A stretch of 64,000 nucleotides of DNA, from sequence record NZ_CP123987.1. The stretch is one strand, 5' to 3'. The stretch is from a plasmid. A model generated the notes under the pieces. It saw only the letters and a list, made by a program, of their open reading frames with translations, had not been told where the DNA came from and searched no databases. Below, piece after piece: positions 11,369 to 29,157 of the stretch. Position 1 is the stretch's first letter, and every line of letters starts with the position of its first letter. The translations under genes were made by a program, and so were the position numbers.

Positions 11369-11780
11369 TAAGTTGATAAATTGCCTTCCATGATAACATT
11401 GCGCATTTAATTCGAGCTGGGAATTGTTTAACCCCTTCTAAAATTATTGCCTCACCTAAAACTTTTCTATCAGGTTTTACTTCTTTTGTAATCATATCGG
11501 AAAATGACAATACCATGTTTTTTATTGTATCGAAGTCTTTATTTAATACTTCATTTGTCATAATACTTGCGGATGATTGAGAAATTGTGCAACCATAGCC
11601 ATCAAAAGCAATATCTTTTATCTTATTATCCTCAATTAATGCAGTTAAGGTAATAACATCCCCACAAGTCGGATTTCTCAATTCAACTTCAACACTTTTA
11701 TTTTCCAACTTACCTTTATGTCGTGGATGGTTAGCTTCTTCTAAAATTGCTTGTCGATATAAATTATTTAAATTACTCAT
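11331..11780 (-). CDS. sufU: Fe-S cluster scaffold SufU (NifU-like)
   Basis: 149 aa; conserved Cys (CGD, GCT, C near C-terminus); between sufS and sufB. Confidence 0.85.
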
Positions 11781-14240: not shown

Positions 14241-14252
14241 TGTACAAGCCCC

Positions 14253-15254: not shown

Positions 15255-15290
15255 TTAAAAACTCGCCTAGAAATCATTCTAGACGAGTTC
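15255..15290 (-). terminator. terminator after the oppA-like gene
   Basis: 'ctcgcctagaa...ttctagacgag' 11-bp stem; T-run is weak. Confidence 0.4.
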
Positions 15291-15294: not shown

Positions 15295-16929
15295 CTATTT
15301 AATATAAGCGTATTTGTAGTTCCATTGTGTACCTGCAGTATTTTGAATAATACCCTTTACTTTGGTATTTTGCATATAAGATGTTGTTTGTTGATATAGA
15401 GGTGTTACCCCTTGATCAGCATTAAAGAGTCGAGCAGCTTTAACTAAATCTTCCCAACGTTTATTAGCATCATTGGCATCTTCATTTTGTGCTTTTTCAA
15501 TTAAAGCATCGTACTCTTTATTAGAGTACTTTCCATAATTGTATGAAGTTCCTGTAACTGGAATTTGCATGAAAGTGATTGGATCTTTAAAGTCTCCACT
15601 CCAACCAGATACATAAATGTCATAGTTACCTTTACGAGCTTTAGATAATGCGCTATTTCCAGGAATATTTTGTACGGAAACCTTAATTCCTGGCAATACC
15701 TTTGTATATTGTGATTGTAGATATTGAGTTAAAGCATCATTATTAGCCATTTCATTGGAAGCTAGAATTGTGAAATTCAAATTCTTTTCACCAATTTCTT
15801 GTAATCCTTTTTTCCAATATTCTCTAGCTAATTTCTCATTGTAATCAACTGTATTATCTACTTTTTGTTCTGCAGCGAAATCTTTACCTGTTTTTGGATT
15901 AGTAGCTAAATCAGATGCTACAAAACCAGTTGGTACATTAGATCCATCGCCGAAAACTTTCTTTGTAAGTGTCTTTCTGTCAATCGCTAATGATAAAGCT
16001 AATCTAATATTTTTATTATTTAGTGCCTTACGATTTACTTCATTAGAATCATTAAAGTTATAGTCTAAATATGCAACGTAAGAATAAGAGTATTGCTTGA
16101 ATTCTGGCTTGTTATGTAGATTCTTAACTTGTTCACTAGATAATGGTGTTAAATCTAACTTACCTTGTTGGAATAATTGATAACCTGTATTGGTATTTTT
16201 AACTACTTGATAGTTAATCTTTTGTAGTTTTACCACTTTTTTATCCCAATATTGATTATTCTTTACAAATGACCACTTATCCGAAGTACCATTCCAGTCT
16301 TTAACTTTAAATGGTCCTGAGTACACCATGTATTTAGAATTAGTTCCATATTTCTTACCATACTTTTGTACCACTTTTTCACTTTGTGGTCCAAATAATG
16401 GATATGTCATTAAGACTTTAAAATATGATATAGGTCTATCTAACGTAATAACAACCTTATTATCACCTTCAGCCTTTATTCCTAATTTATCAGCTGACAT
16501 TTTACCTTCATTGATAGCTTGGGCATTCTTTACATCATAGAACAAATAAGCATATGGTGAAGCTGTCTTAGGATCAATTGTTCTTTTCCAAGAATATACA
16601 AAATCTTGAGCAGTAATCTTATCTCCATTACTCCACTTTGCATCTCTCAAAGTAAAAGTCCATGTTTTGCCATCTTGTGAAACTTGACCACTTTTAGCTA
16701 ATCCAGGAGTTACCTTGCCATCTTTACCTAAACGATAAAAACTTTCAAAAACATTCCCAGTTTGACCATAACCTGTAGACTTAGAAATATCAATGGTATC
16801 CAATGGTCCAGTTGTACTTAGATTTAAAACTTGTTTAGAATTTTCACCAGTTGATTTACCACATGCAACTAACAAAATTGCGGTTAAGCTTATAAATATT
16901 CCAGTAATAATTGCTTTAATTCTTTTCAT
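15295..16929 (-). CDS. oppA: peptide/oligopeptide ABC transporter substrate-binding lipoprotein (OppA-like)
   Basis: 544 aa; signal peptide with lipobox 'LVACGK'; family-5 SBP size and composition. Confidence 0.8.
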   Translation of the reverse strand: MKRIKAIITGIFISLTAILLVACGKSTGENSKQVLNLSTTGPLDTIDISKSTGYGQTGNVFESFYRLGKDGKVTPGLAKSGQVSQDGKTWTFTLRDAKWSNGDKITAQDFVYSWKRTIDPKTASPYAYLFYDVKNAQAINEGKMSADKLGIKAEGDNKVVITLDRPISYFKVLMTYPLFGPQSEKVVQKYGKKYGTNSKYMVYSGPFKVKDWNGTSDKWSFVKNNQYWDKKVVKLQKINYQVVKNTNTGYQLFQQGKLDLTPLSSEQVKNLHNKPEFKQYSYSYVAYLDYNFNDSNEVNRKALNNKNIRLALSLAIDRKTLTKKVFGDGSNVPTGFVASDLATNPKTGKDFAAEQKVDNTVDYNEKLAREYWKKGLQEIGEKNLNFTILASNEMANNDALTQYLQSQYTKVLPGIKVSVQNIPGNSALSKARKGNYDIYVSGWSGDFKDPITFMQIPVTGTSYNYGKYSNKEYDALIEKAQNEDANDANKRWEDLVKAARLFNADQGVTPLYQQTTSYMQNTKVKGIIQNTAGTQWNYKYAYIK

Positions 16930-17115
16930 CTTTATTTTCCCCTTTATGTAAAATATGTTTTTTAATCTATAAACAGTTCATCATCCATCCTTCCAAATAA
17001 ACAAAAAGGACTTGCAACTCCAAAAAATTAGAATCGCAAGTCCAGTTATTATTATCTCATATAATCTAACTGATTAAATTAATCTGCATCGGTACCGATA
17101 ATAAATATATACAGT

Positions 17116-17226
17116 TTAATCCAATCTTGGAAGTGTGAATCTAATTTTCTGCATGCCAAAACCCATGTTTCCTACTGGACAACATGTTACCAAACAACAG
17201 CATTGTGTATTGATAAAGTTTGACAT
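17116..17226 (-). CDS. small Cys-rich peptide, 36 aa: MSNFINTQCCCLVTCCPVGNMGFGMQKIRFTLPRLD
   Basis: Hand-translated; absent from the ORF track because it is under 60 aa. Strong RBS GAGGAG 8 nt upstream of ATG. An inverted repeat pairs the RBS region with the 3' end of the ORF. Confidence 0.35.
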   Translation of the reverse strand: MSNFINTQCCCLVTCCPVGNMGFGMQKIRFTLPRLD

Positions 17227-17337
17227 AGTGATTCACACTCCTCTCATTTCTTTAACCAAATCATATAACCTTACTATACTTTTGTCAATAAATTTTAATT
17301 ATAAGTTTGTATTTTCTAATTTTTGGTAAAAATAATA

Positions 17338-17526
17338 TTACTTATTTAATAAACTCTCTAATTCAGCTAAATTGCTTGCTCGTTCTAATTTAGAATCATT
17401 TAAATCATCTATCATCTCTAAGATAGAATAATTTATCCTAGAAGAAGGGGCCCTCCAATCTAATCTACGCACAACTAAAGCTTTTTTAGATTCTATCTTA
17501 ATCTTATTAACTCTACTTTTTTTCAT
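17338..17526 (-). CDS. hypothetical small protein (62 aa)
   Basis: ORF track only. Confidence 0.2.
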   Translation of the reverse strand: MKKSRVNKIKIESKKALVVRRLDWRAPSSRINYSILEMIDDLNDSKLERASNLAELESLLNK

Positions 17527-17643
17527 AATACATCACTTTCCATAAAAGTATACATCCTATTTGTCGACCAAATTTCTAATCGCTCTATTTATACTGTCAG
17601 AAATATCTTCATCACGAAGTTCAGAATATAAATATAATTTTTC

Positions 17644-17910
17644 TTACAAATCTGGTTCTAAGTTAATTACAATGTTCTGCTTGTAAGGTTTTTCAGGAGT
17701 CATATTGTGATTTTTGCAACACTCAAAATAATCATCAATTGTATCTTCAAAATCATCTTTCAATTCTTGTAATGTATTTCCTTCATAGGATAATAAACTT
17801 CTAATCCCCAAAACTTCGCCATGTAAAATATTATCCTCTAAAGAATACTCTATTGTTCCTTTGTAACCTCTATAGCTCATGACTTCTTGCATTTTTATGT
17901 TTCCTTTCAA
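17644..17910 (-). CDS. HicB-like antitoxin-domain protein (88 aa)
   Basis: 'MSYRGYKGTIEYSLEDNILHGEVLGIRSLLSYEGNTLQELKDDFEDTIDDYFE' resembles the HicB N-terminal domain. Confidence 0.45.
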   Translation of the reverse strand: MKGNIKMQEVMSYRGYKGTIEYSLEDNILHGEVLGIRSLLSYEGNTLQELKDDFEDTIDDYFECCKNHNMTPEKPYKQNIVINLEPDL

Positions 17911-17913
17911 TTA

Positions 17914-18195
17914 TTATCTATTTAACTGTATAGTCCAAGTTAAATTGAATAAAAAAACAACATCCCCGTCAACAACGAGGATGTCTTCGATTGTGGTATG
18001 TAGAACCTTACTGAGAATGACTAAGTTATCCAAACTAGGTAGTGATCTACCAGATAACCATTTATAAATGGATTGTGGGTTCTCAAATCCCATAACTGAT
18101 TGAATATCACGTACACTGTACCCATTATTTTTGAATAAACTTTTTAGATTAGCACCAGTTTTTTCTGAATTTATCGAAACATACATTGGCTTCAT
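17914..18195 (-). CDS. XRE-type HTH DNA-binding protein (93 aa)
   Basis: 'YSVRDIQSVMGFENPQSIYKWLSGRSLPSLDNLVILSKVL' HTH pattern; lies immediately upstream of the HicB-like ORF. Confidence 0.4.
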   Translation of the reverse strand: MKPMYVSINSEKTGANLKSLFKNNGYSVRDIQSVMGFENPQSIYKWLSGRSLPSLDNLVILSKVLHTTIEDILVVDGDVVFLFNLTWTIQLNR

Positions 18196-18972: not shown

Positions 18973-19626
18973 TCAGTCTATTCTTTCTAATTCTATACTT
19001 CTAAAGATGAAATAATCTAAAATTGTTAATATCAAAATCCACATTGCACTAAAATAAAGTTTACTATTATCTGCATGAATCAAATAGTTAATAGGCCATG
19101 CTACGAAACACCAATAGGCTGACATTAAAGTTTTATTACTAGCAAAAATAATAAATAAAATCTCTACTAATGAAAATACTAAATTTATATATTTATTAGT
19201 AACCATATATAAAAACATGTGACTATGATTAAGTAATACTATCAATAGCCACATTGCTATTCCGCTGATTATCCCTAATTTAACTTGGGCTATGGAATAA
19301 CTTATTATCCACCATACAAAAAATGAAATCCACCATAATAATAAGTCTAAGATTAACGTTTTTATTGTAAGTAATTTCACTTGACTATACTTACGAACTT
19401 CTTGAAAATTATTTGCTTCTCTTTCTTGTTCAAAGCATATATTAGTTATCACAGAAATTAAAGATGGATAAGCTAGAGCAAATGCCAGTACAATATTTTT
19501 ATAAGTTAGTAAATTTCGATGCCAATACAAATACCCGTAGGCTGATGCAATTTCAAAAATAGTGAAACTTACTAATAGGTATATAGTAGGACTACTTTTT
19601 AATTTTAATAATTCACTTCTAATCAT
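18973..19626 (-). CDS. lanG: lantibiotic immunity ABC transporter permease, NisG-like
   Basis: 217 aa polytopic membrane protein; last gene of an F-E-G triplet. Confidence 0.6.
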   Translation of the reverse strand: MIRSELLKLKSSPTIYLLVSFTIFEIASAYGYLYWHRNLLTYKNIVLAFALAYPSLISVITNICFEQEREANNFQEVRKYSQVKLLTIKTLILDLLLWWISFFVWWIISYSIAQVKLGIISGIAMWLLIVLLNHSHMFLYMVTNKYINLVFSLVEILFIIFASNKTLMSAYWCFVAWPINYLIHADNSKLYFSAMWILILTILDYFIFRSIELERID

Positions 19627-20335
19627 TTGATTTACCCCATCTTGTAAAATATATTAAAAGTAAAGATATCAATAATGAAAGTAATACAGGACTCATAACA
19701 TCAAAAAGTTGTAAATTTATAATTTTAAAAATTCCTGAGGGCTGTACCCCTAATAGATACTGTGATATTTTATAATGGTACGAGTATGGAAATGCAAACC
19801 ACCATTGTGTTTGAGAAATGATAGATCCAAATAATAAACATACTAACGTATTAACTGCTATAAGCAAATAGCCATTTATAAAATTAGCTAAAAAATATAA
19901 CCACGGTATATTCCAAAATACAGATAACAATAACAGAAATATACTTAGTATACTTTTACTTAGTAATAATTCTGTATAACCACTAAAAAACTTATTTAAG
20001 ACAATTACTAGTATTATAAAAAAAAGACTTGATATTGCAACTCGTACAAAGATTAAGAAAATTTTTGCCAAATAAATTTGGAAACTCCACAAATTATACT
20101 TAACATTTTGAAAGTTTCCTGCTTTTTTCTCCATATTAAAATCCATTAAAAATAATAATCCTATTAGTAGGTATAAAAAAACAGATTCCCACCAATATAT
20201 GGCAAAAGGAGAAAAAATAATTACTCCCCCTACTAAAAAAGCAATTAAACCCGTTAATAAAGGGATGATCCATAAAAGTTTGTTTATTCTAACTTTTTTT
20301 AATTTCAATATTTCAGAAAACAAAGCTTTTATCAT
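19619..20335 (-). CDS. lanE: lantibiotic immunity ABC transporter permease, NisE-like
   Basis: 238 aa polytopic membrane protein; overlaps lanF and lanG by 4-8 nt. Confidence 0.6.
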   Translation of the reverse strand: MIKALFSEILKLKKVRINKLLWIIPLLTGLIAFLVGGVIIFSPFAIYWWESVFLYLLIGLLFLMDFNMEKKAGNFQNVKYNLWSFQIYLAKIFLIFVRVAISSLFFIILVIVLNKFFSGYTELLLSKSILSIFLLLLSVFWNIPWLYFLANFINGYLLIAVNTLVCLLFGSIISQTQWWFAFPYSYHYKISQYLLGVQPSGIFKIINLQLFDVMSPVLLSLLISLLLIYFTRWGKSND

Positions 20336-21024
20336 ATGAAACTCTCTCCCTTCATAACATTAAAGAAAATCTCTTCAATATCTTTATAATTACTTTGAAT
20401 TTTATCATATACAACATGTCCTTTATCTAAAATGATAACTTGATCGACGATTCTTCCAATTTCATGTAGCTGGTGACTTGATATCAAAATAGTTACACCT
20501 TGTTTTTTTAATGACTTTAGTAAATCTAAAAATTCAATAACCCCATCAGGATCTAATCCGTTAATTGGTTCATCGAGAATTATAAATTTAGGTTGTGTTA
20601 AAATAGCCATTCCGATCCCCAATCTTTGTTTCATGCCAACTGAAAATTTACCTGCATGTTTTTTATCCGTGCTATCTAAACCAACTCTTTTTAAAACATC
20701 TTTAATTTGATTATTTGGAATATCATATAAAAGTGCTTTAGTTTTTAAATTATCAAAAGCTGATAAATTCGAATAAATTGGTGGTTGTTCAATCAAAGCA
20801 CCAATGTTACTAGTTTTTCCGTGACCTTCAAATAGTACTTGTCCTTTATCTGGTATTTCAATCCCATAAATAATTTTCATTAAAGTTGATTTTCCAACAC
20901 CATTCATCCCAAATAAACCACAAATAGTACCTTTTTCAATCGTAAAGCTTACATCCTTTAATACTTCTCTATCCTGGTATTTCTTAGAAATATTTTTCAC
21001 TTCAATTTTCATCTTATATATCAC
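20332..21024 (-). CDS. lanF: lantibiotic immunity ABC transporter ATP-binding protein, NisF-like
   Basis: Walker A 'GMNGVGKST'; signature 'FSVGMKQR'; Walker B 'ILDEP'. Confidence 0.8.
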   Translation of the reverse strand: MIYKMKIEVKNISKKYQDREVLKDVSFTIEKGTICGLFGMNGVGKSTLMKIIYGIEIPDKGQVLFEGHGKTSNIGALIEQPPIYSNLSAFDNLKTKALLYDIPNNQIKDVLKRVGLDSTDKKHAGKFSVGMKQRLGIGMAILTQPKFIILDEPINGLDPDGVIEFLDLLKSLKKQGVTILISSHQLHEIGRIVDQVIILDKGHVVYDKIQSNYKDIEEIFFNVMKGESFI

Positions 21025-21075
21025 CTTATCTTTAATTATTCGGTAATAGTATAAGTAATTAAATTCATAATTAGA

Positions 21076-22242
21076 TCAGAATTTCTGGATTCCTAACTTT
21101 ACACTCACCCCATCATTTACTAGATTTGTAATTATCATGGTACCACCATGTCTGACTGCAACCGCTTGTGCAAAAGATAGTCCAATTCCATAATGCTTTC
21201 CACTACGGCCTTTATCTTCAGTAAAAAATAACTTTTGCGCATTAACTTGTGCTTCTTCTGAAAATGGTGCCCCATTATTCCATATTTCAAACCATAAAAA
21301 TTTTAAATCTTCAGTTACAGTAACCGATACTTGGGGATTACTTTTATCCGCATACTGACACGCATTAAGAAAAATGTTGATTAGTGCTCGTTTTAGAGCT
21401 GGAACATTAGCATGAAATTTCTTTAAATTAGTTTTTACCTTTAATCGATTATTCGTTTTGTTGACTATGGCAATATCTGTTAGTTCAAGAAAAAGTTCTT
21501 TAATAAATTCATTTAAATTTATTTCTTCGCTTATTGAATTTAAATTTAGTAACTTAGTATAATTAATCATTGTATTAAAATAATTTTCTAAAGTTTGAAT
21601 ACTGTTTTTCATAGATTCCATAAATTCTAATTGTCTCTTATCAGGATTAGTCAGTTCCAACAACTCTATATTTCCTTTTAATACAGTAAGTGGTGTTTTT
21701 ATATCATGAGATAATGCTGCTACCTGAAATGATAAATCTTCTTTTTCTATCCGTTCAGTCTCAATTAAAGTTGATAACTCATTACTTTTTTGATAGAGTT
21801 GCTTTAATACAGTATCAAATTCTTTAATTTTCGACTTAGGATAATCTTTAGTAACCTTATTCCCCATATTTAAAGCAATCTTTTGAATAGCTGTAAAATT
21901 TTTTGAAATCTCATGAATTAGTTTATAAATTGCAATAATGATTATTAATGATTCGTATATAATCAAAAATATATATGATATTTGATTATACGAAAACTTT
22001 CTCAAGACTGGATTAGTAAATTCCGGAACACTATTTTGTCTAATCACTAAGCTATATAACTTATTAGAAGATATAGTATAACTTGTAGTCCCATTTATAT
22101 AACTTTTATTCTTTACTTTAGCTAAGTAGTAATTATCTTTATCATTTTTTTGATATCTACTTGCTACAATTTTTCCTGTTCTCCTATCGAATACAATAAA
22201 GTCATAAGGATATTTTTTCATCGTTTGCCTAATATCCGTCAA
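21076..22242 (-). CDS. lanK: NisK-like sensor histidine kinase, apparently lacking the N-terminal TM1 segment
   Basis: H-box 'LSHDIKTPLTVLKGNIELL'; G-boxes 'GRSGKHYGIGLSFAQ'. Opens with a hydrophilic sensor-domain-like stretch 'MKKYPYDFIVFD...' before a single TM. Only TTG or an internal ATG is available as start. Confidence 0.75.
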   Translation of the reverse strand: MTDIRQTMKKYPYDFIVFDRRTGKIVASRYQKNDKDNYYLAKVKNKSYINGTTSYTISSNKLYSLVIRQNSVPEFTNPVLRKFSYNQISYIFLIIYESLIIIIAIYKLIHEISKNFTAIQKIALNMGNKVTKDYPKSKIKEFDTVLKQLYQKSNELSTLIETERIEKEDLSFQVAALSHDIKTPLTVLKGNIELLELTNPDKRQLEFMESMKNSIQTLENYFNTMINYTKLLNLNSISEEINLNEFIKELFLELTDIAIVNKTNNRLKVKTNLKKFHANVPALKRALINIFLNACQYADKSNPQVSVTVTEDLKFLWFEIWNNGAPFSEEAQVNAQKLFFTEDKGRSGKHYGIGLSFAQAVAVRHGGTMIITNLVNDGVSVKLGIQKF

Positions 22243-22265
22243 AGTAGTTTTATTAGAATCTAATA

Positions 22266-22895
22266 CTAAATAAACTTTATTCGGATTTGATATATATATT
22301 CGGAAATAGATCCAAATAAAGTTTCTGCATATTCGTCATATACATTATTATAAATGTCTTCACGACTATAAATATGAGAAGTCCTTCGTGAGAGCAATTC
22401 TAAAATATCATATTCACGACTAGTCAAAGGAATATCTTGACTATTAACGCATACCCTTCGTTCTTCCAAATAAAAAGTTATTTTCCCCATATCACGCTTA
22501 ACTTCTGCGAAATCCCGAACTGCTTGACGACTACGTTCTTCTCGTTTAATATTTGCATCAATTTTAGCTAATAACTGTTTCAAACTAAAAGGTTTGGTTA
22601 TATAATCATCACCACCAATTTTTAAACCATATAAAATATCTTCTTCATCATCTTTAGCACTTATAAAAATAATTGGCGTTGAAATCTTAGAACGAATCTG
22701 ATAACAAATTTCAGTTCCTGATATCTTTGACATCATAATATCTAATAAAATTAAATTAAAACCCTCAAAATCTGATAATTTTAACGGAACATGAACATTT
22801 TGGCAAGTTACAACCTCATAATTTTTCATTTCTAATGCTGTTTTCATAAGTTTTAAAATTTCTACATCATCATCTATAACTAAGATTCTATACAT
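22266..22895 (-). CDS. lanR: NisR-like OmpR-family response regulator, C-terminal wing apparently truncated
   Basis: Receiver 'VIDDD...LLDIMM' with conserved D/K; wHTH region ends at '...EYIYQIRIKFI*' with no following '...TVRGVGY' wing. Confidence 0.75.
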   Translation of the reverse strand: MYRILVIDDDVEILKLMKTALEMKNYEVVTCQNVHVPLKLSDFEGFNLILLDIMMSKISGTEICYQIRSKISTPIIFISAKDDEEDILYGLKIGGDDYITKPFSLKQLLAKIDANIKREERSRQAVRDFAEVKRDMGKITFYLEERRVCVNSQDIPLTSREYDILELLSRRTSHIYSREDIYNNVYDEYAETLFGSISEYIYQIRIKFI

Positions 22896-22931
22896 ACGTC
22901 CTCTTCCTTATAATAATTTTTATAACTACAG

Positions 22932-24152
22932 TTAAAAATCATCAAATAACATTAATGATTTCATCCATTGCGTTTTCCCTTTATTTGAAAAACACTCATT
23001 TAAAGTTAAAATAATACCCGTTGTTCCCTCAAGAAAGCCTAAATTTCGAATATCTTTGTCAAAAATACTTTCTATTTCATCAGTATAGTTATTTATAAAT
23101 GTATCAAATTTTCTCGTTTTTGTAAGTTTCCTAAATAAAATGCATATCGAAACTATCCCTGACTTGCCATGACAAATCATGTTGGAATCTACATTCCGCA
23201 TTTCCTTAGTAGCTCTATATAGTATTTCTATTGCTTTTTTTATAAGGTATGAATTATCTTGAATTAGTCCAATATATAAATATAAAACACTTATTCCTGG
23301 ACTACCGTAACACCATGCGTCTCTTATAAATAAATCATTATCTTTTAAAATTGTTCTATTATTAACCAATTCATTATAATCTATTCCATCTTTCCAATGA
23401 AATTTATTCTTATCAACTAATTCAAATTTTTCATAAATCTGAATAATCCTTTCTAATCCGTGTAATATTTCCTTTTTCATAAAGCCCTTTTTATACGCAT
23501 AAGCCAATACACTTCCTACACCAGCAAGTCCATGTGACATACCTGTATTTAGACAACCATTAGGATAAATTTCGTTTTCTGCCTCTGACATTTGGTTACC
23601 TGTTTTAATATACATCGCTATCAATGAATCATTATCATCTAATAAGGTTAATAAAAAAATAATAATTTTTGTCACTAATTTGATATCTATATTATCTATT
23701 AAAAGCAGATACATGAGAATTCCTGATAATCCTTCAATCACATCATAATTAGGTGGAGTAACATTTCCAATATTAAACTCTCCAATTTCTTTGTCTACAT
23801 AATAACTAATGTAATCATTTAGACTTGCAATTAAATTTTGAAATCTCAAATCTTTTTTGAGTGGTAATAAACTTAATGCAATCCCAGCTGCACCTGAATA
23901 TAGAGAACCTGTTAAAAGTCCATATTTTGATAACTTTCCATATAAATAGTCACAATACTAATCAATTTTGGACTTATATGTCCTATCTAAATCTTCCATC
24001 TCTAATAACAGTAAAATAACCCCTGGTAATCCCGAAGAAAGCGTGAATTCTTCGAAATTGTATCGATAAGCATTCTGTTCAATTCTCCTGTCCCATTCTA
24101 ATATCACTCTGCCAAATTTATTTTTTAAAATTTTTCTTTTTATTTCTTCCAT
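22932..24152 (-). pseudogene. lanC: LanC/NisC-like lanthionine cyclase interrupted by an in-frame TAG at 23958-23960
   Basis: ORF-track pieces 23958..24152 and 22932..23849 are in the same frame (24152-23849=303). The stretch between them translates to 'YCDYLYGKLSKYGLLTGSLYSGAAGIALSLL', continuous with NisC-like sequence. 'CHGKSG' Zn-ligand motif is present. 407 codons in total. Confidence 0.75.
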
Positions 24153-25938
24153 ATTTTTCTGCCCAATATAGTTCTTGATAGAAACTACAATCTTTTAAAA
24201 GTTCTTCATGAGTTCCAATACCTACTACTCTTCCTTTATTCATAACAATTATTTTTGATGCCTTACGAGCTACATTTAAATCATGTGAGATAAAAATAGA
24301 TATATTATCTTTGGATAGATTTACAAAATAATCAAATATTTCTTTTTCTGAAATTGGATCTAGCGCTGCACTTGGTTCATCTAATATATATACAGAAGCA
24401 TTTTTAAAAAAAGCTCTAGCCAAAGCTATTTTTTGCCACTGACCACCTGATAATTGCCTCCCATTTTGGAACCAAGTTCCTAATTGTAAATTTAAATTAT
24501 ATTCTCCATTCTCTTTTAAAAAATTTAACCTTAATTTATCCATAATATGTATAATCTTATTATCATCCCACTTCTCTGCAATATTACCAAGACCAATATT
24601 TTCCCTTAAAGTTAGCTCATATTTAACAAAATCTTGGAATAATATCGATATATTCTTTTGATAAAAATCTGTCGATATATGCTTATCTTCAATACCGTTA
24701 TAATATATATGACCTTTAGATGGTGTGTATAACTCTGAGATTAACTTTACTAGAGTACTTTTACCAGATCCATTTTCCCCTATTATCGCAATTAGTTCCC
24801 CTGTATGCATAGAAAAGTTTATTTTTTCTAAAGCATTGACAGAAGAGTTAGGATACTTATATTCAACATCTATTAGATCTATCCTTTTTATTCTGTTCTC
24901 ATCACCTATCCCTATGTTTTCACGATAATCACTTTGATTTTCTATTTTCAAAAAATTAAGTAATTGCTCCATAAACAAACTAGTATTATAAATAATATAA
25001 ATATTTTGTATGATTGTTTGTGAATAGCCATTTATCTTTGTAATTGCTTGCATAAGACTAACTAAATTTCCTATTAATATTCTTCCAGCTTGTACAGATA
25101 CTATAATAGTGCATATAACAAAAATATTGATAAAGTCTAATAAAATTTGAAGTCCCGAATTAAAATATGCTTTCTTTCTAGCAATAAGCAAATCTTGTAA
25201 TATAAAATCTTTTTTTAATTTCTTATACTCTTCCACAAAATAATCACTTAAATTATTTAATTTAATTTCCTTAAAAGAAAAGTCATGTGTCAATAAATAA
25301 ACTATATACCACGACTTTCTTTCTGCACTCGCTCTTTTCCATTGTATTAAAAATTCAAGTTGACCTACTTTTAAAAATATAATTAAAGATAACATAGGAG
25401 TTACTAATAACAGCAATCCTATCCATATGTTCCACGCCGCAACAAAAATCAAACTAGTCAGTAAAGATATAAAAGCAGCCAGCATAGTAATAACAGCATT
25501 AAAAAGTTGAAATGGTTTATACGTACTATCCTGTGTTATTTTCTCAATAAGATTATACATATCTGATTGTTCATAATCTGTCAACTTTAAGGAGGTTGTT
25601 TTTTTTATCAATTTTAAATTAATATTGTAAGAAAGCCACATATTAAATTTTCCGTTTATATAATTTTCTAATTGAGATAATATTACCGTAAATATTTGTA
25701 GTATTAAAAAATAAATAATATTATATACAAGCTGCATTCCTCGACTAAATATACTATTGATCAGATTTTGATAAACTATTAAATTTAATAGCGGAATTAA
25801 TGCCGTTACTATATTTAAGCACATTAAGTATGTTGCATATTTTCTTTCTAATTGAAAAATTAACTTAATCGTATCTGGAAGTGTTAATAATGTCTTAAAA
25901 AAATTTTTTGATGTTAGTTTTTTTATTTCATCCATCAT
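24118..25938 (-). CDS. lanT: NisT-like lantibiotic export ABC transporter (no C39 peptidase domain)
   Basis: 606 aa; six N-terminal TM segments then Walker A 'GENGSGKST', 'LSGGQWQK', 'ILDEP'. Start ATG overlaps the lanB stop (TAATG). Confidence 0.85.
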   Translation of the reverse strand: MMDEIKKLTSKNFFKTLLTLPDTIKLIFQLERKYATYLMCLNIVTALIPLLNLIVYQNLINSIFSRGMQLVYNIIYFLILQIFTVILSQLENYINGKFNMWLSYNINLKLIKKTTSLKLTDYEQSDMYNLIEKITQDSTYKPFQLFNAVITMLAAFISLLTSLIFVAAWNIWIGLLLLVTPMLSLIIFLKVGQLEFLIQWKRASAERKSWYIVYLLTHDFSFKEIKLNNLSDYFVEEYKKLKKDFILQDLLIARKKAYFNSGLQILLDFINIFVICTIIVSVQAGRILIGNLVSLMQAITKINGYSQTIIQNIYIIYNTSLFMEQLLNFLKIENQSDYRENIGIGDENRIKRIDLIDVEYKYPNSSVNALEKINFSMHTGELIAIIGENGSGKSTLVKLISELYTPSKGHIYYNGIEDKHISTDFYQKNISILFQDFVKYELTLRENIGLGNIAEKWDDNKIIHIMDKLRLNFLKENGEYNLNLQLGTWFQNGRQLSGGQWQKIALARAFFKNASVYILDEPSAALDPISEKEIFDYFVNLSKDNISIFISHDLNVARKASKIIVMNKGRVVGIGTHEELLKDCSFYQELYWAEKYGRNKKKNFKK

Positions 25939-28898
25939 TATTTCCCTTTCAAAATATATTTTTCAGACATAATCATTTTTTTTACAATAAAATACAGATT
26001 TTGTTCCCTAACCCTATTAATTCCAAATAACCTATTATTATGTACATGTATAATACTATCCATAATAGTGTCAGCATTTTTTTTATCAATTATTAATTTT
26101 AGTTTTTTAATCTCTTCCTTAAGTCTATTAAAGTTGTATTTGTCAATCTCATATATGTCAGTTAACTGATTAAATACTACACTTTTATAGTATTGTATTT
26201 TAGACCTTACATTTTTATCTACCTTATTGGGACAGACTTTATCTAGAAAACATAAAATGTCTTCATTTGTTTTATAAAATATTTTTAAATAAAAATAAAT
26301 CATTGCAACTGCAATATCATCAAGTTTATCTTCCATGTTCTTTTCTTTTATAAATTTCAAATACTTTATTACAAGTTTAGAATCTTCACAGAAAATATTT
26401 TCAGCTATATCTATTGCATTAACTCCTCCATATCTCTCAATTTCGCGATCATATGTAGAAATATCAAAAGTCGATAAAATACCATTTCTATGACCTTGCT
26501 CCAAATCTTTTTTAATAACTTCATATATTTTATATAAATTATTACCACTTATCCTTATCCTTATTTGTGGTACTGGATCCATATAACGTAAGAAAAATAG
26601 TTTTCCGTCTAATTTTTCTACCTTTTTTTGAATCAGAGGTATGTAAACTCGTATAAACTCTTCTTGTCTCCTAGTCGACATATACACTTTTAGATATAAC
26701 CAATCATTGAATGGCAATTTCTCTCGAACATGTTTGGAGATTCTCTGTTGTTTTTCCTTGTTTACTTTTTTAACATCGAATTTACTATTAATAACTGGAA
26801 CCACTATCTCTGATATTTTTCCTTCACTATCTTTATATATCATGTCTTTATTATTAAAATATTCTTGTATAATGGCATGACCATTCTTTTCTATATTTCT
26901 TTTTATTTCTGACATAAACAGTTCAACATCAAGTGAATTTTTACGATTAATATATAGTTTGTTATCACCGTCAACAATATAAATTTCATTCGGTATATTT
27001 CTCTGCTTTATAATCGACTCTATTGCTATATTACTTAATTCAAATTTAAATATTCTCCATGTCTTAGGACTGACTACTATATCCTCAAACATAATTCGTG
27101 GAATAAAATTCATATCTTTATAGATTAAATCCCATGGTACATATCCAAAATTATTATTTATTGAAATTTCACATAAAAATCTTAGTTCATTACTAAATAA
27201 TGTCTTGTTATACATGCTTGTTACATAAAACTTCATTTTTTCTTGAGTAGACACATCATACGCATAAAAATTTTCATTTTCATCTAATCCAATATAAATA
27301 TTAGTTAGCCTTACTTCAGATTGATCAGTACTTGAGAAAATAGGAAGAACTTTTTCTCTTACAAAAGATGTTCGCATTATATTAGCGTGTCGTATATTTT
27401 CAGGAAGAAAAACTATTTCACAAGACGTCACCCCTTCTTCAATATTTGCAGCTTTCACTTGTTTAAGTGTCTTCATGTGATAATCCCTTAATTTATCTGA
27501 TAATAATGAGAACCTTCCAGAGGATCCCCCTATATTATTACTGCCTATAATATTGCTTAATGCTAAAGTTTTCTTCTTATTAATTTGGACCATATGAAAA
27601 AATAATTCTATTCCTTGTATTGAGGTACTTTCTTTGGAATTCAGATTTCTATAATAATTAGAAAAGCATTTCAAATTAATTTCCTCTCTATTTAATAAAG
27701 CTTCTATATATTTATTAATATACATTTCTTTTTCATCATGGGAATAATATGACGTTGGAGGCTCTAATTCAAAAACTTCATTCTGAGGATGCGTATAATC
27801 ATACGGTGCGCCAATTCCTTTTATTGGATCAAATAGTTCTATTAACTGCACATCTTGATCAATACCATATTTTTCAATGAATTTATCTTTATAGTCATCA
27901 AAATAAGTCCTAGTTACTGATTTAACAGTATTAGTTATAAAATTTGAAAATTTCTCTATTCTTTGTTTATTACTATTATCAATATATATATTCCCATCAT
28001 TATATAAATCTACTTGAATATAATTATCACTTTTATTAAGTCTAGCCATTTGGTGATATATTTCAATTAATTTATCAGAACCCGAACCTATTTCAATATG
28101 TGTATATTCTTCAATTAACTCTTGTATCTTTGTTAATATTTCTACATATTTTTTACTAACATCTATTTCCCTAACTTTCATTATGAAGTCTGACATAGAA
28201 AAATTAATTAGTATATTTTCTTGTAAATTTGATATTAGATAATGATTCTCTACTAAATCATTAATATATTCTTTTGTTAAATTTAAGTATTCATTACCAT
28301 ATATTGTTATAACCTTTTCTATGATTTCACTATATGTCTTATAAGTTTGGCTACACTCTTCTGATATAATTCGATAAACTTTAGAGTTATTAATACTAAC
28401 TTCCTCTAAATCTTGATCATTTATTGAATATAATTGCATAACACGATTTCCACTAATGTAATTTCCATTATTAGATATGAAAGATAAGTTTGATTGATAG
28501 TCCTTTTCTAATTTAAAAATTACATCTGTTAACCATTTAATATCTATAAAAACTACTTTGTGTGTTTTCCCTAATTCTTTCTTATCACCCTTAACGGTAA
28601 ATTTACCATTAGAAGTTTCACTAAATAGTCCAAAAGGAGTTGCTCGATAATAGCTCCTTTTATAATATTTATATATTGATTCAAAAAAATTTTTTTCTTT
28701 CTTTTTCTTTAGTTTTCCTGCATTATACTTTTTAAGCATTCCATACAGCTTAGGATTAGCCAATAATATTTGTTCAAGAAAAATATTATCATTTTTAATA
28801 ATTTCAATAAATTCCTTATAATTATTGAAATTTTGACTTTTTTCATATGTTTGAATTGTATTACGTATCATTACATCACTAACATTGAAATTATTCAT
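25938..28898 (-). CDS. lanB: LanB-type lantibiotic dehydratase (NisB-like)
   Basis: 986 aa; N-terminal 'FLEQILLANPKLY...KYNAGKLKKKKEK..FESIYKYYKRSYYRATPFGLFSETS' closely parallels the NisB N-terminus (R.TPFG motif); size matches NisB at about 993 aa. Confidence 0.9.
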   Translation of the reverse strand: MNNFNVSDVMIRNTIQTYEKSQNFNNYKEFIEIIKNDNIFLEQILLANPKLYGMLKKYNAGKLKKKKEKNFFESIYKYYKRSYYRATPFGLFSETSNGKFTVKGDKKELGKTHKVVFIDIKWLTDVIFKLEKDYQSNLSFISNNGNYISGNRVMQLYSINDQDLEEVSINNSKVYRIISEECSQTYKTYSEIIEKVITIYGNEYLNLTKEYINDLVENHYLISNLQENILINFSMSDFIMKVREIDVSKKYVEILTKIQELIEEYTHIEIGSGSDKLIEIYHQMARLNKSDNYIQVDLYNDGNIYIDNSNKQRIEKFSNFITNTVKSVTRTYFDDYKDKFIEKYGIDQDVQLIELFDPIKGIGAPYDYTHPQNEVFELEPPTSYYSHDEKEMYINKYIEALLNREEINLKCFSNYYRNLNSKESTSIQGIELFFHMVQINKKKTLALSNIIGSNNIGGSSGRFSLLSDKLRDYHMKTLKQVKAANIEEGVTSCEIVFLPENIRHANIMRTSFVREKVLPIFSSTDQSEVRLTNIYIGLDENENFYAYDVSTQEKMKFYVTSMYNKTLFSNELRFLCEISINNNFGYVPWDLIYKDMNFIPRIMFEDIVVSPKTWRIFKFELSNIAIESIIKQRNIPNEIYIVDGDNKLYINRKNSLDVELFMSEIKRNIEKNGHAIIQEYFNNKDMIYKDSEGKISEIVVPVINSKFDVKKVNKEKQQRISKHVREKLPFNDWLYLKVYMSTRRQEEFIRVYIPLIQKKVEKLDGKLFFLRYMDPVPQIRIRISGNNLYKIYEVIKKDLEQGHRNGILSTFDISTYDREIERYGGVNAIDIAENIFCEDSKLVIKYLKFIKEKNMEDKLDDIAVAMIYFYLKIFYKTNEDILCFLDKVCPNKVDKNVRSKIQYYKSVVFNQLTDIYEIDKYNFNRLKEEIKKLKLIIDKKNADTIMDSIIHVHNNRLFGINRVREQNLYFIVKKMIMSEKYILKGK

Positions 28899-28977: not shown

Positions 28978-29157
28978 CTATTTACTTATATGTACATGAC
29001 AACCACATGATGCAGTTTTCATTGTACATCCCATTAGTGCACCTGTTTTGCAACCTGGGGTACAAAGTGAGTAGCTTGTAATTTTAACTGAATAATTTGA
29101 ATTTGTACTTTCCTTTGATACTTTTACTAAATCCAATTTAAAATCATTAACACTCAT
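28978..29157 (-). CDS. lanA: nisin-like lantibiotic precursor, 59 aa: MSVNDFKLDLVKVSKESTNSNYSVK-ITSYSLCTPGCKTGALMGCTMKTASCGCHVHISK
   Basis: Hand-translated; absent from the ORF track. AGGAGG RBS 10 nt upstream. 'F(N/K)LDL' leader box. 34-aa core differs from my recollection of nisin A at 7 positions, with all ring-forming Ser/Thr/Cys conserved. Lies immediately upstream of lanB. Confidence 0.85.
   Translation of the reverse strand: MSVNDFKLDLVKVSKESTNSNYSVKITSYSLCTPGCKTGALMGCTMKTASCGCHVHISK

What the first reader, a model, noticed from the sequence alone, without database searches (positions are those of the whole stretch)
17100..17250. Unannotated 36-aa cysteine-cluster peptide (QCCCLVTCC) with a self-complementary RBS / 3' end
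The minus-strand ORF 17116..17226 is preceded by GAGAGGAG 8 nt from its ATG. It encodes MSNFINTQCCCLVTCCPVGNMGFGMQKIRFTLPRLD, with five Cys in eight residues. The RBS region (minus-strand GAGGAGTGTGAATC) is the reverse complement of the last codons of the ORF (GATTCACACTTCC; forward GGAAGTGTGAATC at 17129-17141). The mRNA can therefore fold to occlude its own Shine-Dalgarno. It lies just upstream of oppA. Candidate roles are a metal- or redox-binding micropeptide, a RiPP-like precursor, or a regulatory uORF. I do not recognise the motif.
Basis: seen in the sequence. Interest (0 to 1): 0.55.

Follow-up and report, generated by a model that had tools for sequence, protein, structure and literature searches.

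The report
Cysteine-sensing leader peptide attenuator of oppA
The 36-codon cysteine-rich ORF is most likely a sensor rather than a working peptide: ribosomes stalling on its Cys codons when cysteine is scarce would stop a downstream terminator from forming and switch on a peptide-uptake gene, a device found across Lactobacillaceae and not found described in the papers or RNA-family library searched here.

Summary
The minus-strand ORF 17226..17116 encodes the stated peptide, and its Shine-Dalgarno (SD) region pairs with its last codons. The window is Ligilactobacillus salivarius.

The ORF sits between a near-consensus promoter and a strong intrinsic terminator, just upstream of a monocistronic orphan oppA. 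Three overlapping inverted repeats form the classic attenuator set: 1:2 (SD with the ORF 3' end), 2:3 (antiterminator) and 3:4 (terminator).

In 66 of 69 evaluable oppA orthologs across about ten Lactobacillaceae genera, an SD+ATG ORF with a Cys-codon cluster precedes oppA; 65 of these have a strong terminator after the ORF. Only the Cys codons are conserved, and UGU/UGC swaps are frequent. All three helices covary between lineages. Paralogs lack the ORF. Three Liquorilactobacillus orthologs carry a Met-specific T-box instead.

A leader of the same design precedes the cysK2-ctl1-cysE2 operon of Lacticaseibacillus. Published RNA-seq shows cysteine-repressed premature termination there, with the mechanism still unknown.

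Neither leader matches Rfam. The best reading is a tRNA-Cys-charging sensor acting by ribosome-mediated transcription attenuation. The micropeptide and RiPP readings are not supported: a nisin-like cluster nearby has its own lanA.

The parts
17260..17288 (-). Sigma-70-type promoter, TTGACA-17 nt-TATGAT
   Evidence: 11 of 12 consensus matches, the best in the region. The predicted transcript start is around 17253 (inferred).
17238..17245 (-). Shine-Dalgarno GAGAGGAG of the leader ORF
   Evidence: Read from the sequence. It is 11 nt upstream of the ATG. All 66 orthologous leaders have an SD-like motif before the sORF start.
17230..17243 (-). Segment 1 (GAGGAGUGUGAAUC): the 5' strand of the SD-sequestering helix, acting as anti-antiterminator
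   Evidence: Inverted repeat I3. Duplex energy -18.7 kcal/mol. In the swap test the cognate partner ranks 1-2 of 15 in most lineages, z about -5.4. Compensatory changes within genera.
17116..17226 (-). Leader ORF, 36 codons plus stop, MSNFINTQCCCLVTCCPVGNMGFGMQKIRFTLPRLD
   Evidence: Counterparts in 66 of 69 evaluable orthologous loci.
17194..17202 (-). Control codons Cys9-Cys11 (UGC UGU UGU)
   Evidence: The type strain has UGU UGU UGU, a synonymous change.
17179..17184 (-). Control codons Cys15-Cys16 (UGU UGU)
   Evidence: They lie in the 5' arm of a small hairpin inside the 1:2 helix.
17128..17151 (-). Segment 2 (codons 26-33 of the leader ORF): pairs either with segment 1 or with the terminator 5' arm and loop
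   Evidence: Inverted repeats I3 and I1 share this stretch. 1:2 is -18.7 and 2:3 is -21.4 kcal/mol, and 0 of 2000 shuffles reach either. The antiterminator appears in the MFE when the SD-to-Cys region is masked.
17044..17126 (-). Two spacer hairpins enclosed by the antiterminator; they contain the leader stop codon 17118..17116
   Evidence: MFE structure. Not conserved in sequence between genera.
17008..17043 (-). Intrinsic terminator hairpin (segments 3 and 4), 16-bp stem
   Evidence: Terminator scan. Inverted repeat I2. -23.1 kcal/mol. A terminator of -12 kcal/mol or stronger follows the sORF in 65 of 66 leaders. Many compensatory pairs.
16998..17007 (-). U-tract of the terminator (UUUUUGUUUA)
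15295..16929 (-). Regulated gene: an orphan OppA-type family-5 peptide-binding lipoprotein, 544 aa
   Evidence: SBP_bac_5 at 5.6e-83. Best solved relatives are PrgZ/OppA at E about 1e-104. 97% identical to L. salivarius DSM 20555.
15258..15290 (-). Hairpin plus T-run after oppA, a probable terminator that makes oppA monocistronic
   Evidence: Read from the sequence. sufC starts about 230 nt further on.

Best explanation
The ORF is the leader peptide of a ribosome-mediated transcription attenuator that reports the supply of charged tRNA-Cys and controls the downstream orphan oppA.

Transcription starts at the promoter at 17288..17260. The leader RNA can form three mutually exclusive helices:
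- 1:2, the SD region with the last codons of the leader ORF.
- 2:3, those same codons with the 5' arm and loop of the terminator. This is the antiterminator.
- 3:4, the terminator itself.

When cysteine is plentiful, the ribosome runs through the five Cys codons and over segment 2 to the stop codon. Segment 2 is then either covered by the ribosome or, after release, captured by segment 1. Either way 3:4 forms and transcription stops before oppA. The 1:2 helix also hides the SD, so the leader is not re-translated.

When Cys-tRNA is scarce, the ribosome stalls at codons 9-16. That ribosome, or a following ribosome or 30S subunit trapped at the start site, keeps segment 1 unavailable while segment 2 stays uncovered. 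Segment 2 then pairs with segment 3, the terminator cannot form, and oppA is transcribed.

What is shown: the promoter, SD, ORF, Cys codons and terminator; the three overlapping complementarities; and their conservation and covariation across the family.

What is inferred: that the ORF is translated, that stalling gives read-through, how segment 1 is masked, and that this OppA serves sulfur-amino-acid acquisition, for example uptake of Cys- or Met-containing peptides.
For: **Anatomy in the window.** Promoter and terminator; ORF. The repeat finder returns exactly three inverted repeats, overlapping as 1:2, 2:3 and 3:4. Their energies are -18.7, -21.4 and -24.7 kcal/mol, and 0 of 2000 shuffles of segment 2 reach either the 1:2 or the 2:3 value. 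The antiterminator becomes the MFE when the SD-to-Cys stretch is masked.

**Conservation.** 66 of 69 evaluable orthologous loci (53-97% OppA identity; Ligi-, Lenti-, Levi-, Lactiplanti-, Secundi-, Furfuri- and Apilactobacillus, Lactobacillus, Pediococcus) have an SD+ATG sORF with a Cys cluster, and 65 of the 66 have a terminator downstream. None of the 11 paralogs (42-46% identity, plus one truncated 56% match) has an SD+ATG Cys sORF in its leader.

**Codon-level selection.** Only the Cys cluster is conserved between genera, and UGU/UGC swaps are frequent, including window versus type strain. The chance rate is 1.4% per region and the reverse-strand control gives 0 of 15. The background is 8 hits in 1.6 Mb, none followed by a strong terminator.

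**Covariation.** The 1:2 swap test gives cognate -17.7 versus non-cognate -11.4 +/- 3.2 kcal/mol, rank z about -5.4. The 2:3 swap test (arm plus loop) gives -20.5 versus -14.6 +/- 4.0, rank z about -4.2, permutation p < 5e-5, and the antiterminator strand overlaps segment 2 in 14 of 15 lineages. RNAalifold finds compensatory pairs in P1 and in the terminators, and a consensus antiterminator in three genus groups.

**Replacement by another charging sensor.** The three Liquorilactobacillus orthologs carry a T-box (78-94 bits) with specifier AUG. The reading register was calibrated on a BrnQ-linked T-box that reads AUC.

**A second instance with experimental support.** The Lacticaseibacillus cysK2-ctl1-cysE2 leader has the same parts: promoter, GGAGG, sORF MMSQSMFNAINCCCRTTRFWRCSAC, a 1:2 helix, an antiterminator and a terminator. 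PMC6004538 reports that this operon is up about 8-fold without cysteine, with high 5'-UTR read coverage interpreted as premature termination and the mechanism 'yet to be discovered'.

**Expression of the L. plantarum ortholog.** lp_0783 rises together with cblB/cbs/cysE (PMC7645587) and 2.77-fold with cadmium (PMC5430759).

**No known RNA family.** No Rfam family matches either leader.
Against: There is no direct evidence that this ORF is translated or that oppA responds to cysteine in L. salivarius.

Segment 1 lies 5' of the stall site, unlike in the trp leader. A ribosome stalled at codon 9 would not itself cover it, so masking by a queued ribosome or 30S subunit, or a kinetic effect, has to be assumed.

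The first antiterminator swap test, which used the 5' arm alone, was only marginal (z -1.6 to -1.9). It became significant only after I redefined the arm post hoc to include the loop. Within genera the antiterminator pairs are mostly invariant.

The link between this OppA and sulfur amino acids is indirect. Its family assignment is generic, and its Cys/Met content does not differ from that of the paralogs. The identification of lp_0783 as the ortholog rests on gene order, not on a sequence comparison.

From my own knowledge: in Bacillus subtilis RNA polymerase is reported to outrun the ribosome, which is usually given as the reason Firmicutes rarely use this mechanism.
Confidence: 0.84

Rival explanations
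1. The leader is a riboswitch or a protein-binding attenuator RNA. In this view the structured RNA senses a ligand or a protein, and the open reading frame and its UGY triplets are features of the RNA rather than of translation.
For: The leader is unusually stable (z = -6.5) and the helices covary. UGU-rich stretches lie inside conserved hairpins.
Against: No Rfam family matches.

Between genera nothing is conserved in sequence except an SD, an in-frame ATG and the Cys codons, so there is no candidate ligand pocket.

The cluster composition varies (CCC, CCxC, CxCC, CCxCC) while always coding for Cys, with UGU/UGC swaps. SD+ATG in frame is present in 66 of 66 leaders. The reverse-strand and shuffle controls are near zero.
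Confidence: 0.06
2. The ORF encodes a functional Cys-rich micropeptide, for metal or redox binding, that acts in trans, possibly in addition to any cis role.
For: There are five Cys in eight residues. Within a genus the whole peptide is fairly conserved, for example in Lactiplantibacillus. Leader peptides with trans functions are known: peTrpL, PMC7298713, listed (title and abstract only).
Against: Outside the Cys cluster there is no conservation between genera. Length ranges from 7 codons (MLMQCCC) to about 39. There is no signal peptide or partner gene. A T-box replaces the ORF in Liquorilactobacillus. The within-genus conservation is explained by the overlapping RNA helices.
Confidence: 0.04
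3. The ORF is a RiPP precursor that belongs to the neighbouring lanthipeptide (nisin-like) gene cluster.
For: LanB, a LanT-like transporter, LanC, a two-component system and ABC immunity-like genes lie 1.7-12 kb upstream on the same strand. The peptide is Cys-rich.
Against: A canonical nisin-like LanA (59 aa, ITSYSLCTPGCKTGALMGC...) sits directly upstream of lanB at 29157..28978.

The sORF has no leader/core organisation: its Cys residues start at residue 9. It co-occurs with oppA in 65 other genomes whose neighbours are unrelated. It is separated from the lan genes by an HTH gene and two small ORFs.
Confidence: 0.01
4. The sORF is translated and regulates oppA, but the signal is not tRNA-Cys charging. 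Examples would be a nascent poly-Cys arrest peptide that responds to thiol oxidation or metals, or combined Met+Cys limitation.
For: lp_0783 responds to cadmium and to acid. Met makes up 16% of the non-Cys residues around the cluster in 15 lineages. The Liquorilactobacillus orthologs use a Met T-box.
Against: Cadmium and acid induction coincide with induction of the cys-biosynthesis genes, so cysteine depletion is the simpler reading. The cysK2 operon, whose leader has the same design, responds specifically to cysteine versus methionine omission. L. salivarius and several other lineages have no Met next to the cluster.
Confidence: 0.05

Closest known systems
Classical leader-peptide transcription attenuators (trp, his, leu, thr, pheA operons of Enterobacteria)
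   Same: A short SD-led ORF in the 5' leader with a run of codons for the sensed amino acid. Segments 1-4 form anti-antiterminator, antiterminator and terminator. Read-through is expected when the ribosome stalls.
   Different: It senses Cys. It occurs in Lactobacillaceae, where T-boxes are the norm (PMC1262725). Segment 1 is the leader's own SD and start region, upstream of the control codons, so the off-state also shuts down leader translation. It controls an orphan transport SBP rather than a biosynthetic operon.
Polycysteine leaderless sORFs of mycobacteria (Ms5788A; bioRxiv 10.1101/834739)
   Same: Runs of Cys codons in an unannotated upstream sORF act as sensors of tRNA-Cys supply and control cysteine-related genes. 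Several loci may form a 'ribulon'.
   Different: The mycobacterial sORFs are leaderless and were shown to act on translation by unmasking the downstream RBS. Here the sORF has a strong SD and the output is an intrinsic terminator. There is no sequence homology. The L. saerimneri variant (L004) does resemble the translational design.
uORFC-8-2 motif upstream of cysS in Rhodobacterales (PMC8632094)
   Same: A predicted Cys-codon uORF followed by an intrinsic terminator, proposed to act by ribosome-mediated attenuation.
   Different: It is alphaproteobacterial, has two tandem Cys codons at positions 14-15, and regulates cysteinyl-tRNA synthetase. The sequence and structure are unrelated. It is also only predicted.
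Met- and Cys-specific T-box leaders of Lactobacillaceae
   Same: The same logic (uncharged tRNA leads to antitermination) and the same kind of targets, namely ABC-transporter SBPs (PMC6004538). A Met T-box occupies the equivalent position in the Liquorilactobacillus orthologs.
   Different: A T-box binds the tRNA directly and needs no translation. The window's leader has no T-box features.
Antibiotic-sensing leader peptides of Firmicutes (ermC, cat, vmlR)
   Same: A stalled ribosome on a short leader ORF remodels downstream RNA structure in a Gram-positive. vmlR includes a transcription-attenuation layer (PMC9226507, title and abstract seen).
   Different: There the stalling signal is a drug plus the nascent peptide, not amino-acid supply, and those ORFs have no amino-acid codon run.

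Membership tests
Leader-peptide (ribosome-mediated) transcription attenuator | A short ORF with a ribosome-binding site inside the 5' leader of the regulated gene | tested here: met
   SD GAGAGGAG plus ATG, 36 codons, located between the promoter and oppA. The same is seen in 66 of 69 evaluable orthologs.
Leader-peptide (ribosome-mediated) transcription attenuator | A cluster of codons for one amino acid, conserved as codons | tested here: met
   5 Cys in 8 codons. At least 3 Cys in 8 codons in all 66 leaders, with synonymous UGU/UGC changes. Shuffle rate is 1.4%.
Leader-peptide (ribosome-mediated) transcription attenuator | An intrinsic terminator between the leader ORF and the regulated gene | tested here: met
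   17043..17008 plus a U-tract, -23.1 kcal/mol. Present in 65 of 66 leaders.
Leader-peptide (ribosome-mediated) transcription attenuator | An alternative antiterminator that shares nucleotides with the terminator and with a segment whose availability depends on ribosome position | tested here: met
   I1 17128-17151 / 17021-17044, -21.4 kcal/mol. Cross-lineage swap test z about -4.2 under a post hoc arm definition; the first, narrower test was marginal.
Leader-peptide (ribosome-mediated) transcription attenuator | Translation of the leader, and read-through that responds to starvation for that amino acid | not testable with these tools
   Only indirect evidence: a leader of the same design on cysK2-ctl1-cysE2 shows cysteine-repressed premature termination (PMC6004538), and lp_0783 is co-induced with cys genes.
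Leader-peptide (ribosome-mediated) transcription attenuator | The regulated gene serves supply of the sensed amino acid | tested here: inconclusive
   OppA is a generic peptide SBP. Replacement by a Met T-box and the expression data point to sulfur amino acids. The Cys/Met content test was uninformative.
T-box leader (RF00230) | A match to the covariance model (Stem I, specifier loop, T-box sequence) | tested here: not met
   No hit at E <= 1 in 16500-17800. The same search finds T-boxes in L017, L024, L025 and L075.
Any Rfam 15 family | A covariance-model match | tested here: not met
   Only chance-level hits, NrrF at E 0.34 and a CRISPR repeat at E 0.8. None in the leaders of representative orthologs or in the cysK2 leader.
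Mycobacterial polycysteine leaderless sORF attenuators | A leaderless start (translation begins at the transcript's 5' end) | tested here: not met
   About 27 nt of 5' UTR with a strong SD precede the ATG.
Mycobacterial polycysteine leaderless sORF attenuators | A stalled ribosome unmasks the RBS of the downstream gene (translational output) | tested here: not met
   In the window the output element is a terminator 79 nt upstream of the oppA ATG, and the oppA SD is not part of the helices. The L004 variant may fit this feature.
Class I lanthipeptide precursor (LanA) | An N-terminal leader plus a Ser/Thr/Cys core, encoded next to lanB/lanC | tested here: not met
   The real lanA is at 29157..28978, adjacent to lanB. 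The sORF's Cys residues start at residue 9, and the sORF is linked to oppA in genomes with unrelated neighbours.

The most novel reading that the evidence does not exclude
Lactobacillaceae may possess a family-wide 'cysteine ribulon', possibly one that also senses methionine. It would consist of independent leader-peptide attenuators with self-sequestering SD sequences that switch on sulfur-amino-acid acquisition genes when tRNA-Cys charging falls. The members seen here are an orphan OppA, which would then be a dedicated receptor for Cys/Met-containing peptides or glutathione-like thiols, and the mobile cysK-ctl-cysE operon.

The output platforms would be interchangeable: an intrinsic terminator in most lineages, RBS sequestration in L. 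saerimneri, tandem sORFs in Secundilactobacillus, and a Met T-box in Liquorilactobacillus.

This would be classical ribosome-mediated attenuation operating widely in a Firmicute family thought to rely on T-boxes. It would also supply the missing mechanism for the cysteine control reported in L. paracasei.
Probability: 0.4. Interest if true: 0.75.

Novelty: new variant of a known kind. Interest (0 to 1): 0.62.

Why it matters
Leader-peptide attenuation is a textbook mechanism, but it is regarded as rare in Firmicutes. Cysteine-specific versions are known experimentally only from mycobacteria, where they act on translation.

This finding points to a conserved, unannotated Cys sensor across many food, gut and probiotic lactobacilli. 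It is not in Rfam, and I did not find it described in the searchable literature.

It offers a concrete, testable mechanism for a published open question: how the cysK2-ctl1-cysE2 operon of L. paracasei is repressed by cysteine through premature termination. That operon matters for sulfur flavour formation in cheese.

It also assigns a physiological context, sulfur-amino-acid scavenging, to an orphan OppA that the literature treats as an adhesin or a 'quorum-sensing' gene (lp_0783).

The self-sequestering SD is an unusual design feature. It may show how ribosome-mediated attenuation can work where transcription and translation are loosely coupled.

Finally, it is a reminder to genome annotators and RiPP miners that Cys-rich mini-ORFs can be sensors rather than products.

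Tried and rejected
- **T-box or known riboswitch in the window.** Rejected: permissive Rfam scans found nothing.
- **Protein search with the peptide.** The exact-product look-up found no called gene.
- **First antiterminator swap test, 5' arm only.** Marginal, z -1.6 to -1.9. I repeated it with arm plus loop after seeing that the window's antiterminator extends into the loop. This was a post hoc change and is reported as such.
- **Sulfur-sparing composition of OppA orthologs versus paralogs.** No significant difference: 0 Cys in both, Met 1.22% versus 1.50%, p = 0.10.
- **RiPP reading.** Examined seriously because a LanBTC cluster is nearby. Rejected because that cluster has its own nisin-like lanA.
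- **Asp (GAU) reading of the Liquorilactobacillus T-box specifier.** Considered and set aside after calibrating the register on a BrnQ-linked T-box that reads AUC at the same model positions. From my own knowledge, the UGGU bulge also fits discriminator A73 of tRNA-Met.
- **Metagenome scan with the Liu/Wuthrich 'palindromic motif'.** It mostly returned unrelated GC-rich environmental terminators. Only 5 of 120 loci were the Lacticaseibacillus leader.
- **Liu et al. 2012 (J Bacteriol 194:3522).** Could not be read, so I cannot exclude that it comments on an ORF in that leader. Wuthrich 2018 still calls the mechanism unknown.
- **Co-transcription of the suf operon with oppA.** Rejected: there is a terminator-like hairpin after oppA and a 260-nt gap.
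Full report
**1. The observation**

On the minus strand, ATG 17226-17224 opens a 36-codon ORF that ends with TAA at 17118-17116. GAGAGGAG lies at 17245-17238, which is 11 nt, not 8 nt, from the ATG.

The SD region GAGGAGUGUGAAUC (17243-17230) is complementary to GAUUCACACUUCC (17141-17129), which covers codons 29-33. The repeat finder reports a perfect 10-mer. RNAduplex gives 12 contiguous pairs at -18.7 kcal/mol, and 0 of 2000 shuffles of the partner reach that energy. The whole leader folds far better than its shuffles (-80.3 kcal/mol, z = -6.5), and this helix is in the MFE structure. No gene call with this product exists in the public gene-position collection.

**2. What surrounds it**

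One is a near-consensus promoter, TTGACA-17-TATGAT, at 17288-17260. The other is a 16-bp intrinsic terminator with a U-tract at 17043-16998, lying between the ORF and the next gene.

That gene (16929-15295) is a family-5 peptide-binding lipoprotein of the OppA type. It hits SBP_bac_5 at 5.6e-83, and its closest solved relatives are PrgZ and OppA proteins at E about 1e-104. It is followed by its own terminator-like hairpin, so it is monocistronic. The sufCDSUB genes further downstream are a separate unit. OppA is 97% identical to that of Ligilactobacillus salivarius DSM 20555.

The repeat finder returns exactly three inverted repeats in 16990-17270, and they overlap like the segments of a textbook attenuator:
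- 17230-17239 / 17132-17141, the 1:2 pairing.
- 17128-17151 / 17021-17044, the 2:3 pairing (24 nt, 79% complementary).
- 17028-17043 / 17008-17023, the 3:4 pairing, which is the terminator.

Their duplex energies are -18.7, -21.4 and -24.7 kcal/mol. When the stretch from the SD to just past the Cys codons is made unavailable and the 3' arm of the terminator is left out, the MFE structure switches to the 2:3 helix. A permissive Rfam search found no T-box, riboswitch or leader family here.

**3. Comparative evidence**

I fetched 80 loci encoding OppA relatives, one genome per species. 70 count as orthologous leaders: the window, L001-L068 and L076. 69 of these have enough upstream sequence to evaluate.

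Of those 69, 66 carry an SD-led, ATG-initiated short ORF with at least 3 Cys in 8 codons upstream of oppA. Of those 66, 65 have a hairpin terminator of -12 kcal/mol or stronger after the ORF. The genera are Ligilactobacillus, Lactobacillus, Lentilactobacillus, Levilactobacillus, Lactiplantibacillus, Secundilactobacillus, Furfurilactobacillus, Apilactobacillus and Pediococcus.

The gene is an orphan SBP in unrelated genomic neighbourhoods, so leader and gene move together. None of the 11 paralogous loci has an SD+ATG Cys sORF in its leader.

Between genera the peptides share nothing but the Cys cluster (CCC, CCxC, CxCC, CCxCC, CCSMC...). Length runs from 7 to about 39 codons. The first Cys falls at codon 5-16, with a median of 10.

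Cys positions show frequent UGU/UGC exchanges, even between this window (UGC UGU UGU) and the type strain (UGU UGU UGU). That indicates selection on the meaning of the codon.

Controls:
- 1.4% of dinucleotide shuffles of the upstream regions yield such an ORF, against 15 of 15 non-redundant lineages observed. The reverse strand gives 0 of 15.
- In 1.61 Mb scanned on both strands there are 66 such ORFs in the oppA leaders and 8 elsewhere. None of those 8 is followed by a strong terminator. The 64-kb window has no other such ORF.

**4. The helices covary**

The sequences of segments 1-4 differ completely between genera. I therefore tested whether each lineage's segments fit each other better than they fit other lineages' segments.

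For SD region versus the region after the Cys cluster, the cognate mean is -17.7 and the non-cognate mean is -11.4 +/- 3.2 kcal/mol. The cognate ranks first or second of 15 in most lineages (rank sum 30 against 120 expected, z about -5.4). The partner lies in the last codons of the sORF or around its stop.

For the antiterminator, a first test that used only the 5' arm of the terminator was marginal (z -1.6 to -1.9). I then saw that the window's antiterminator runs into the terminator loop and repeated the test with arm plus loop. The result was cognate -20.5 versus -14.6 +/- 4.0 kcal/mol, rank z about -4.2, and 0 of 20000 permutations as extreme. The antiterminator strand overlaps segment 2 in 14 of 15 lineages. 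This redefinition was post hoc and should be weighed accordingly.

Within genera, RNAalifold recovers the SD:segment-2 helix and the terminator with compensatory changes. In Lentilactobacillus, pair 25:101 changes GC to AU three times. In Levilactobacillus, pairs 24:130, 27:127 and 29:125 change on both sides.

Alignments truncated before the terminator's 3' arm give a consensus antiterminator of 13-19 pairs in Lenti-, Levi- and Lactiplantibacillus. Most of these pairs are invariant within a genus.

**5. Independent links to sulfur amino acids**

*T-box replacement.* The three orthologs without a Cys sORF, all Liquorilactobacillus, carry a T-box at the same place (78-94 bits, E 1e-17 to 1e-21). 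Its specifier loop reads GAAG-AUG-R. I calibrated the register on another T-box in the fetched loci that precedes a BrnQ branched-chain amino-acid carrier. That one reads GAAA-AUC-C, so the Ile codon sits at positions 5-7. The same register gives AUG, Met, for the oppA T-boxes. The same gene is therefore controlled by two different sensors of tRNA charging.

*Met enrichment.* Met is over-represented next to the Cys cluster: 16% of the non-Cys residues, with runs such as MMMCCPCC. Dual sensing in some lineages is therefore possible.

*A second leader with experimental support.* PMC6004538 mentions a 'palindromic motif' upstream of the L. paracasei cysK2-ctl1-cysE2 operon. I scanned metagenomes for that motif and found five low-GC contigs. 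They are 98.7% identical to Lacticaseibacillus paracasei and rhamnosus plasmids. In them the motif is the terminator of a leader with the same design:
- promoter TTGACA-17-TATATT and SD GGAGG;
- sORF MMSQSMFNAINCCCRTTRFWRCSAC;
- an SD/AUG-sequestering helix, GUCAUGAU with AUCAUGAC;
- an antiterminator formed by the codons after CCC, followed by the terminator.

The downstream genes are a CysK/CBS-like enzyme, a cystathionine lyase and CysE.

A diverged copy on an L. casei plasmid (CysK 83% identical) keeps the leader almost invariant while the flanks drift. One P1 pair there changes from G-C to U-A.

For this operon the paper reports about 8-fold higher expression without cysteine. It also reports high 5'-UTR coverage, interpreted as premature termination, and states that the mechanism 'is yet to be discovered'. 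The follow-up paper adds nothing on mechanism.

*Expression of the L. plantarum ortholog.* By gene order next to clpP (lp_0786), the L. plantarum ortholog is lp_0783. It is induced together with cblB, cbs and cysE under acid stress (PMC7645587), and 2.77-fold by cadmium (PMC5430759).

**6. Mechanism**

The shown facts are the parts, the three competing helices and their conservation. The following sequence of events is inferred.

*No ribosome on the leader.* Helix 1:2 forms as soon as segment 2 is made. The SD is hidden, 3:4 forms and transcription stops.

*Cysteine plentiful.* The ribosome reads through segment 2 to the stop three codons later. Segment 2 is covered, then recaptured by segment 1 after release. 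The terminator forms.

*Cys-tRNA scarce.* The ribosome stops at codons 9-16. Segment 2 emerges uncovered, but segment 1 must be unavailable for 2:3 to win.

In lineages with the cluster at codons 5-8, the stalled ribosome's own footprint reaches the start region. In others (codons 9-16) the space between the start and the stall site is about one ribosome footprint. A following ribosome or 30S subunit held at the SD/AUG would then do the masking.

Support for masking of segment 1 as the critical step comes from L065. Its sORF ends right after CCC and its segment 2 lies 40 nt beyond the stop. A purely kinetic effect of a ribosome sitting inside the 1:2 loop is an alternative. I could not test this step.

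**7. Rivals**

- *Riboswitch or protein-binding RNA with an incidental ORF.* Unlikely, because nothing but the SD, the ATG and the Cys codons is conserved between genera.
- *Trans-acting micropeptide.* Not excluded as an extra role, but not needed, and it fits poorly with the 7-codon versions and the T-box replacement.
- *RiPP.* This deserved a real check because a class I lanthipeptide cluster lies 1.7-12 kb upstream: LanB, a LanT-like transporter, LanC, a response regulator and kinase, and an ABC system. That cluster has its own nisin-like lanA next to lanB.
- *A signal other than tRNA-Cys charging (metals, oxidation, Met).* This remains a minor possibility.

**8. Comparison with what is known, and novelty**

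It works like the trp/his/leu attenuators. It meets every sequence-level criterion for that class. The functional criteria cannot be tested here.

It is not a member of any Rfam family. It is not homologous to the mycobacterial polycysteine leaderless sORFs, which act on translation, or to the predicted Rhodobacterales cysS uORF.

Ten literature searches found no description of a Cys leader peptide in Lactobacillaceae or upstream of oppA. One relevant paper, Liu 2012, could not be read.

The distinctive points are:
- the amino acid sensed;
- the host family, where T-boxes dominate;
- the use of the leader's own SD as segment 1;
- a transport SBP as the target;
- the variety of output platforms.

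I rate it a new variant of a known kind. Its interest is moderately high because it also explains a published unexplained regulation and is directly testable.

Noticed in passing
window 18973-29157 (minus strand): A complete nisin-like class I lanthipeptide cluster. Its parts are lanA 29157..28978 (MSVNDFKLDLVKVSKESTNSNYSVKITSYSLCTPGCKTGALMGCTMKTASCGCHVHISK), lanB 28898..25938, a LanT-like ABC transporter 25938..24118, a LanC-like protein 23849..22932, a response regulator 22895..22266, a histidine kinase 22242..21076, an ABC ATPase 21024..20332, and two membrane proteins 20335..18973.
   Followed up: partly
L004 3763-4006 (Ligilactobacillus saerimneri): A variant leader. The sORF MTHLLSLASRETMRHRTGFSRGPQLACCCC ends in four Cys codons just before its stop, and no terminator follows. 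Instead, the stretch just 5' of the Cys codons pairs with oppA's own SD (CCUCAGUUGG with CAAUUGGGGAG). This looks like a translational version of the same sensor, as in mycobacteria.
   Followed up: partly
L027 and L065, between the leader terminator and the oppA start: Two Secundilactobacillus species have a second Cys mini-ORF after the terminator, each with a strong SD (UUGGAGGUG): MAKSCCCWMMTKN and MKKACCCRMLRGSI. L026 lacks it. This may be a second checkpoint.
   Followed up: no
L017 919-1156, L024 3566-3801, L025 3630-3867: The Liquorilactobacillus orthologs of this oppA carry a T-box with specifier AUG (Met) in place of the Cys sORF. The reading register was calibrated on the BrnQ-linked T-box L075 3542..3293.
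   Followed up: yes
L179 360-690; L201 (pLC1 of L. rhamnosus Lc705); L202 (pLBCZ-1 of L. casei ATCC 393): The mobile cysK2-ctl1-cysE2 operon of Lacticaseibacillus has an unlisted Cys sORF (MMSQSMFNAINCCCRTTRFWRCSAC) between its promoter and the published 'palindromic motif', which is a terminator. This offers a mechanism for its reported cysteine-repressed premature termination.
   Followed up: yes
sORFs of 15 non-redundant lineages (e.g. L035, L007, L005, L027): Met codons are enriched next to the Cys cluster: 16% of the non-Cys residues within +/-3 codons, with runs such as MMMCCPCC, MCCSMC and MCVCCMSLMS. L. salivarius does not show this. It may reflect combined Met/Cys sensing, or it may be a by-product of CAUG-rich hairpins.
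   Followed up: partly
window 9935-15032 (minus strand); L056 21-2311; L030 6767-9386: The neighbours of this oppA are sometimes sulfur-related. sufCDSUB lies directly downstream in the window. In Apilactobacillus, ORFs that look by eye like SufS/SufU/SufB lie upstream. In L. brevis, MetQ/MetN/MetI-like ORFs lie downstream. The last two were not checked against family libraries.
   Followed up: no
window 17338-18195 (minus strand): Between the lanthipeptide cluster and the leader lie an HTH_3 protein (18195..17914) and two small ORFs of 88 and 62 aa that match no family in Pfam or NCBIfam.
   Followed up: no
literature on lp_0783 and L. salivarius OppA: The L. plantarum ortholog lp_0783 is described in the literature as a quorum-sensing gene (PMC6459948) and as a heparan-sulfate-binding OppA (PMC11109227). 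That paper also cites an L. salivarius OppA adhesin. I did not check whether that adhesin is the gene in this window.
   Followed up: no
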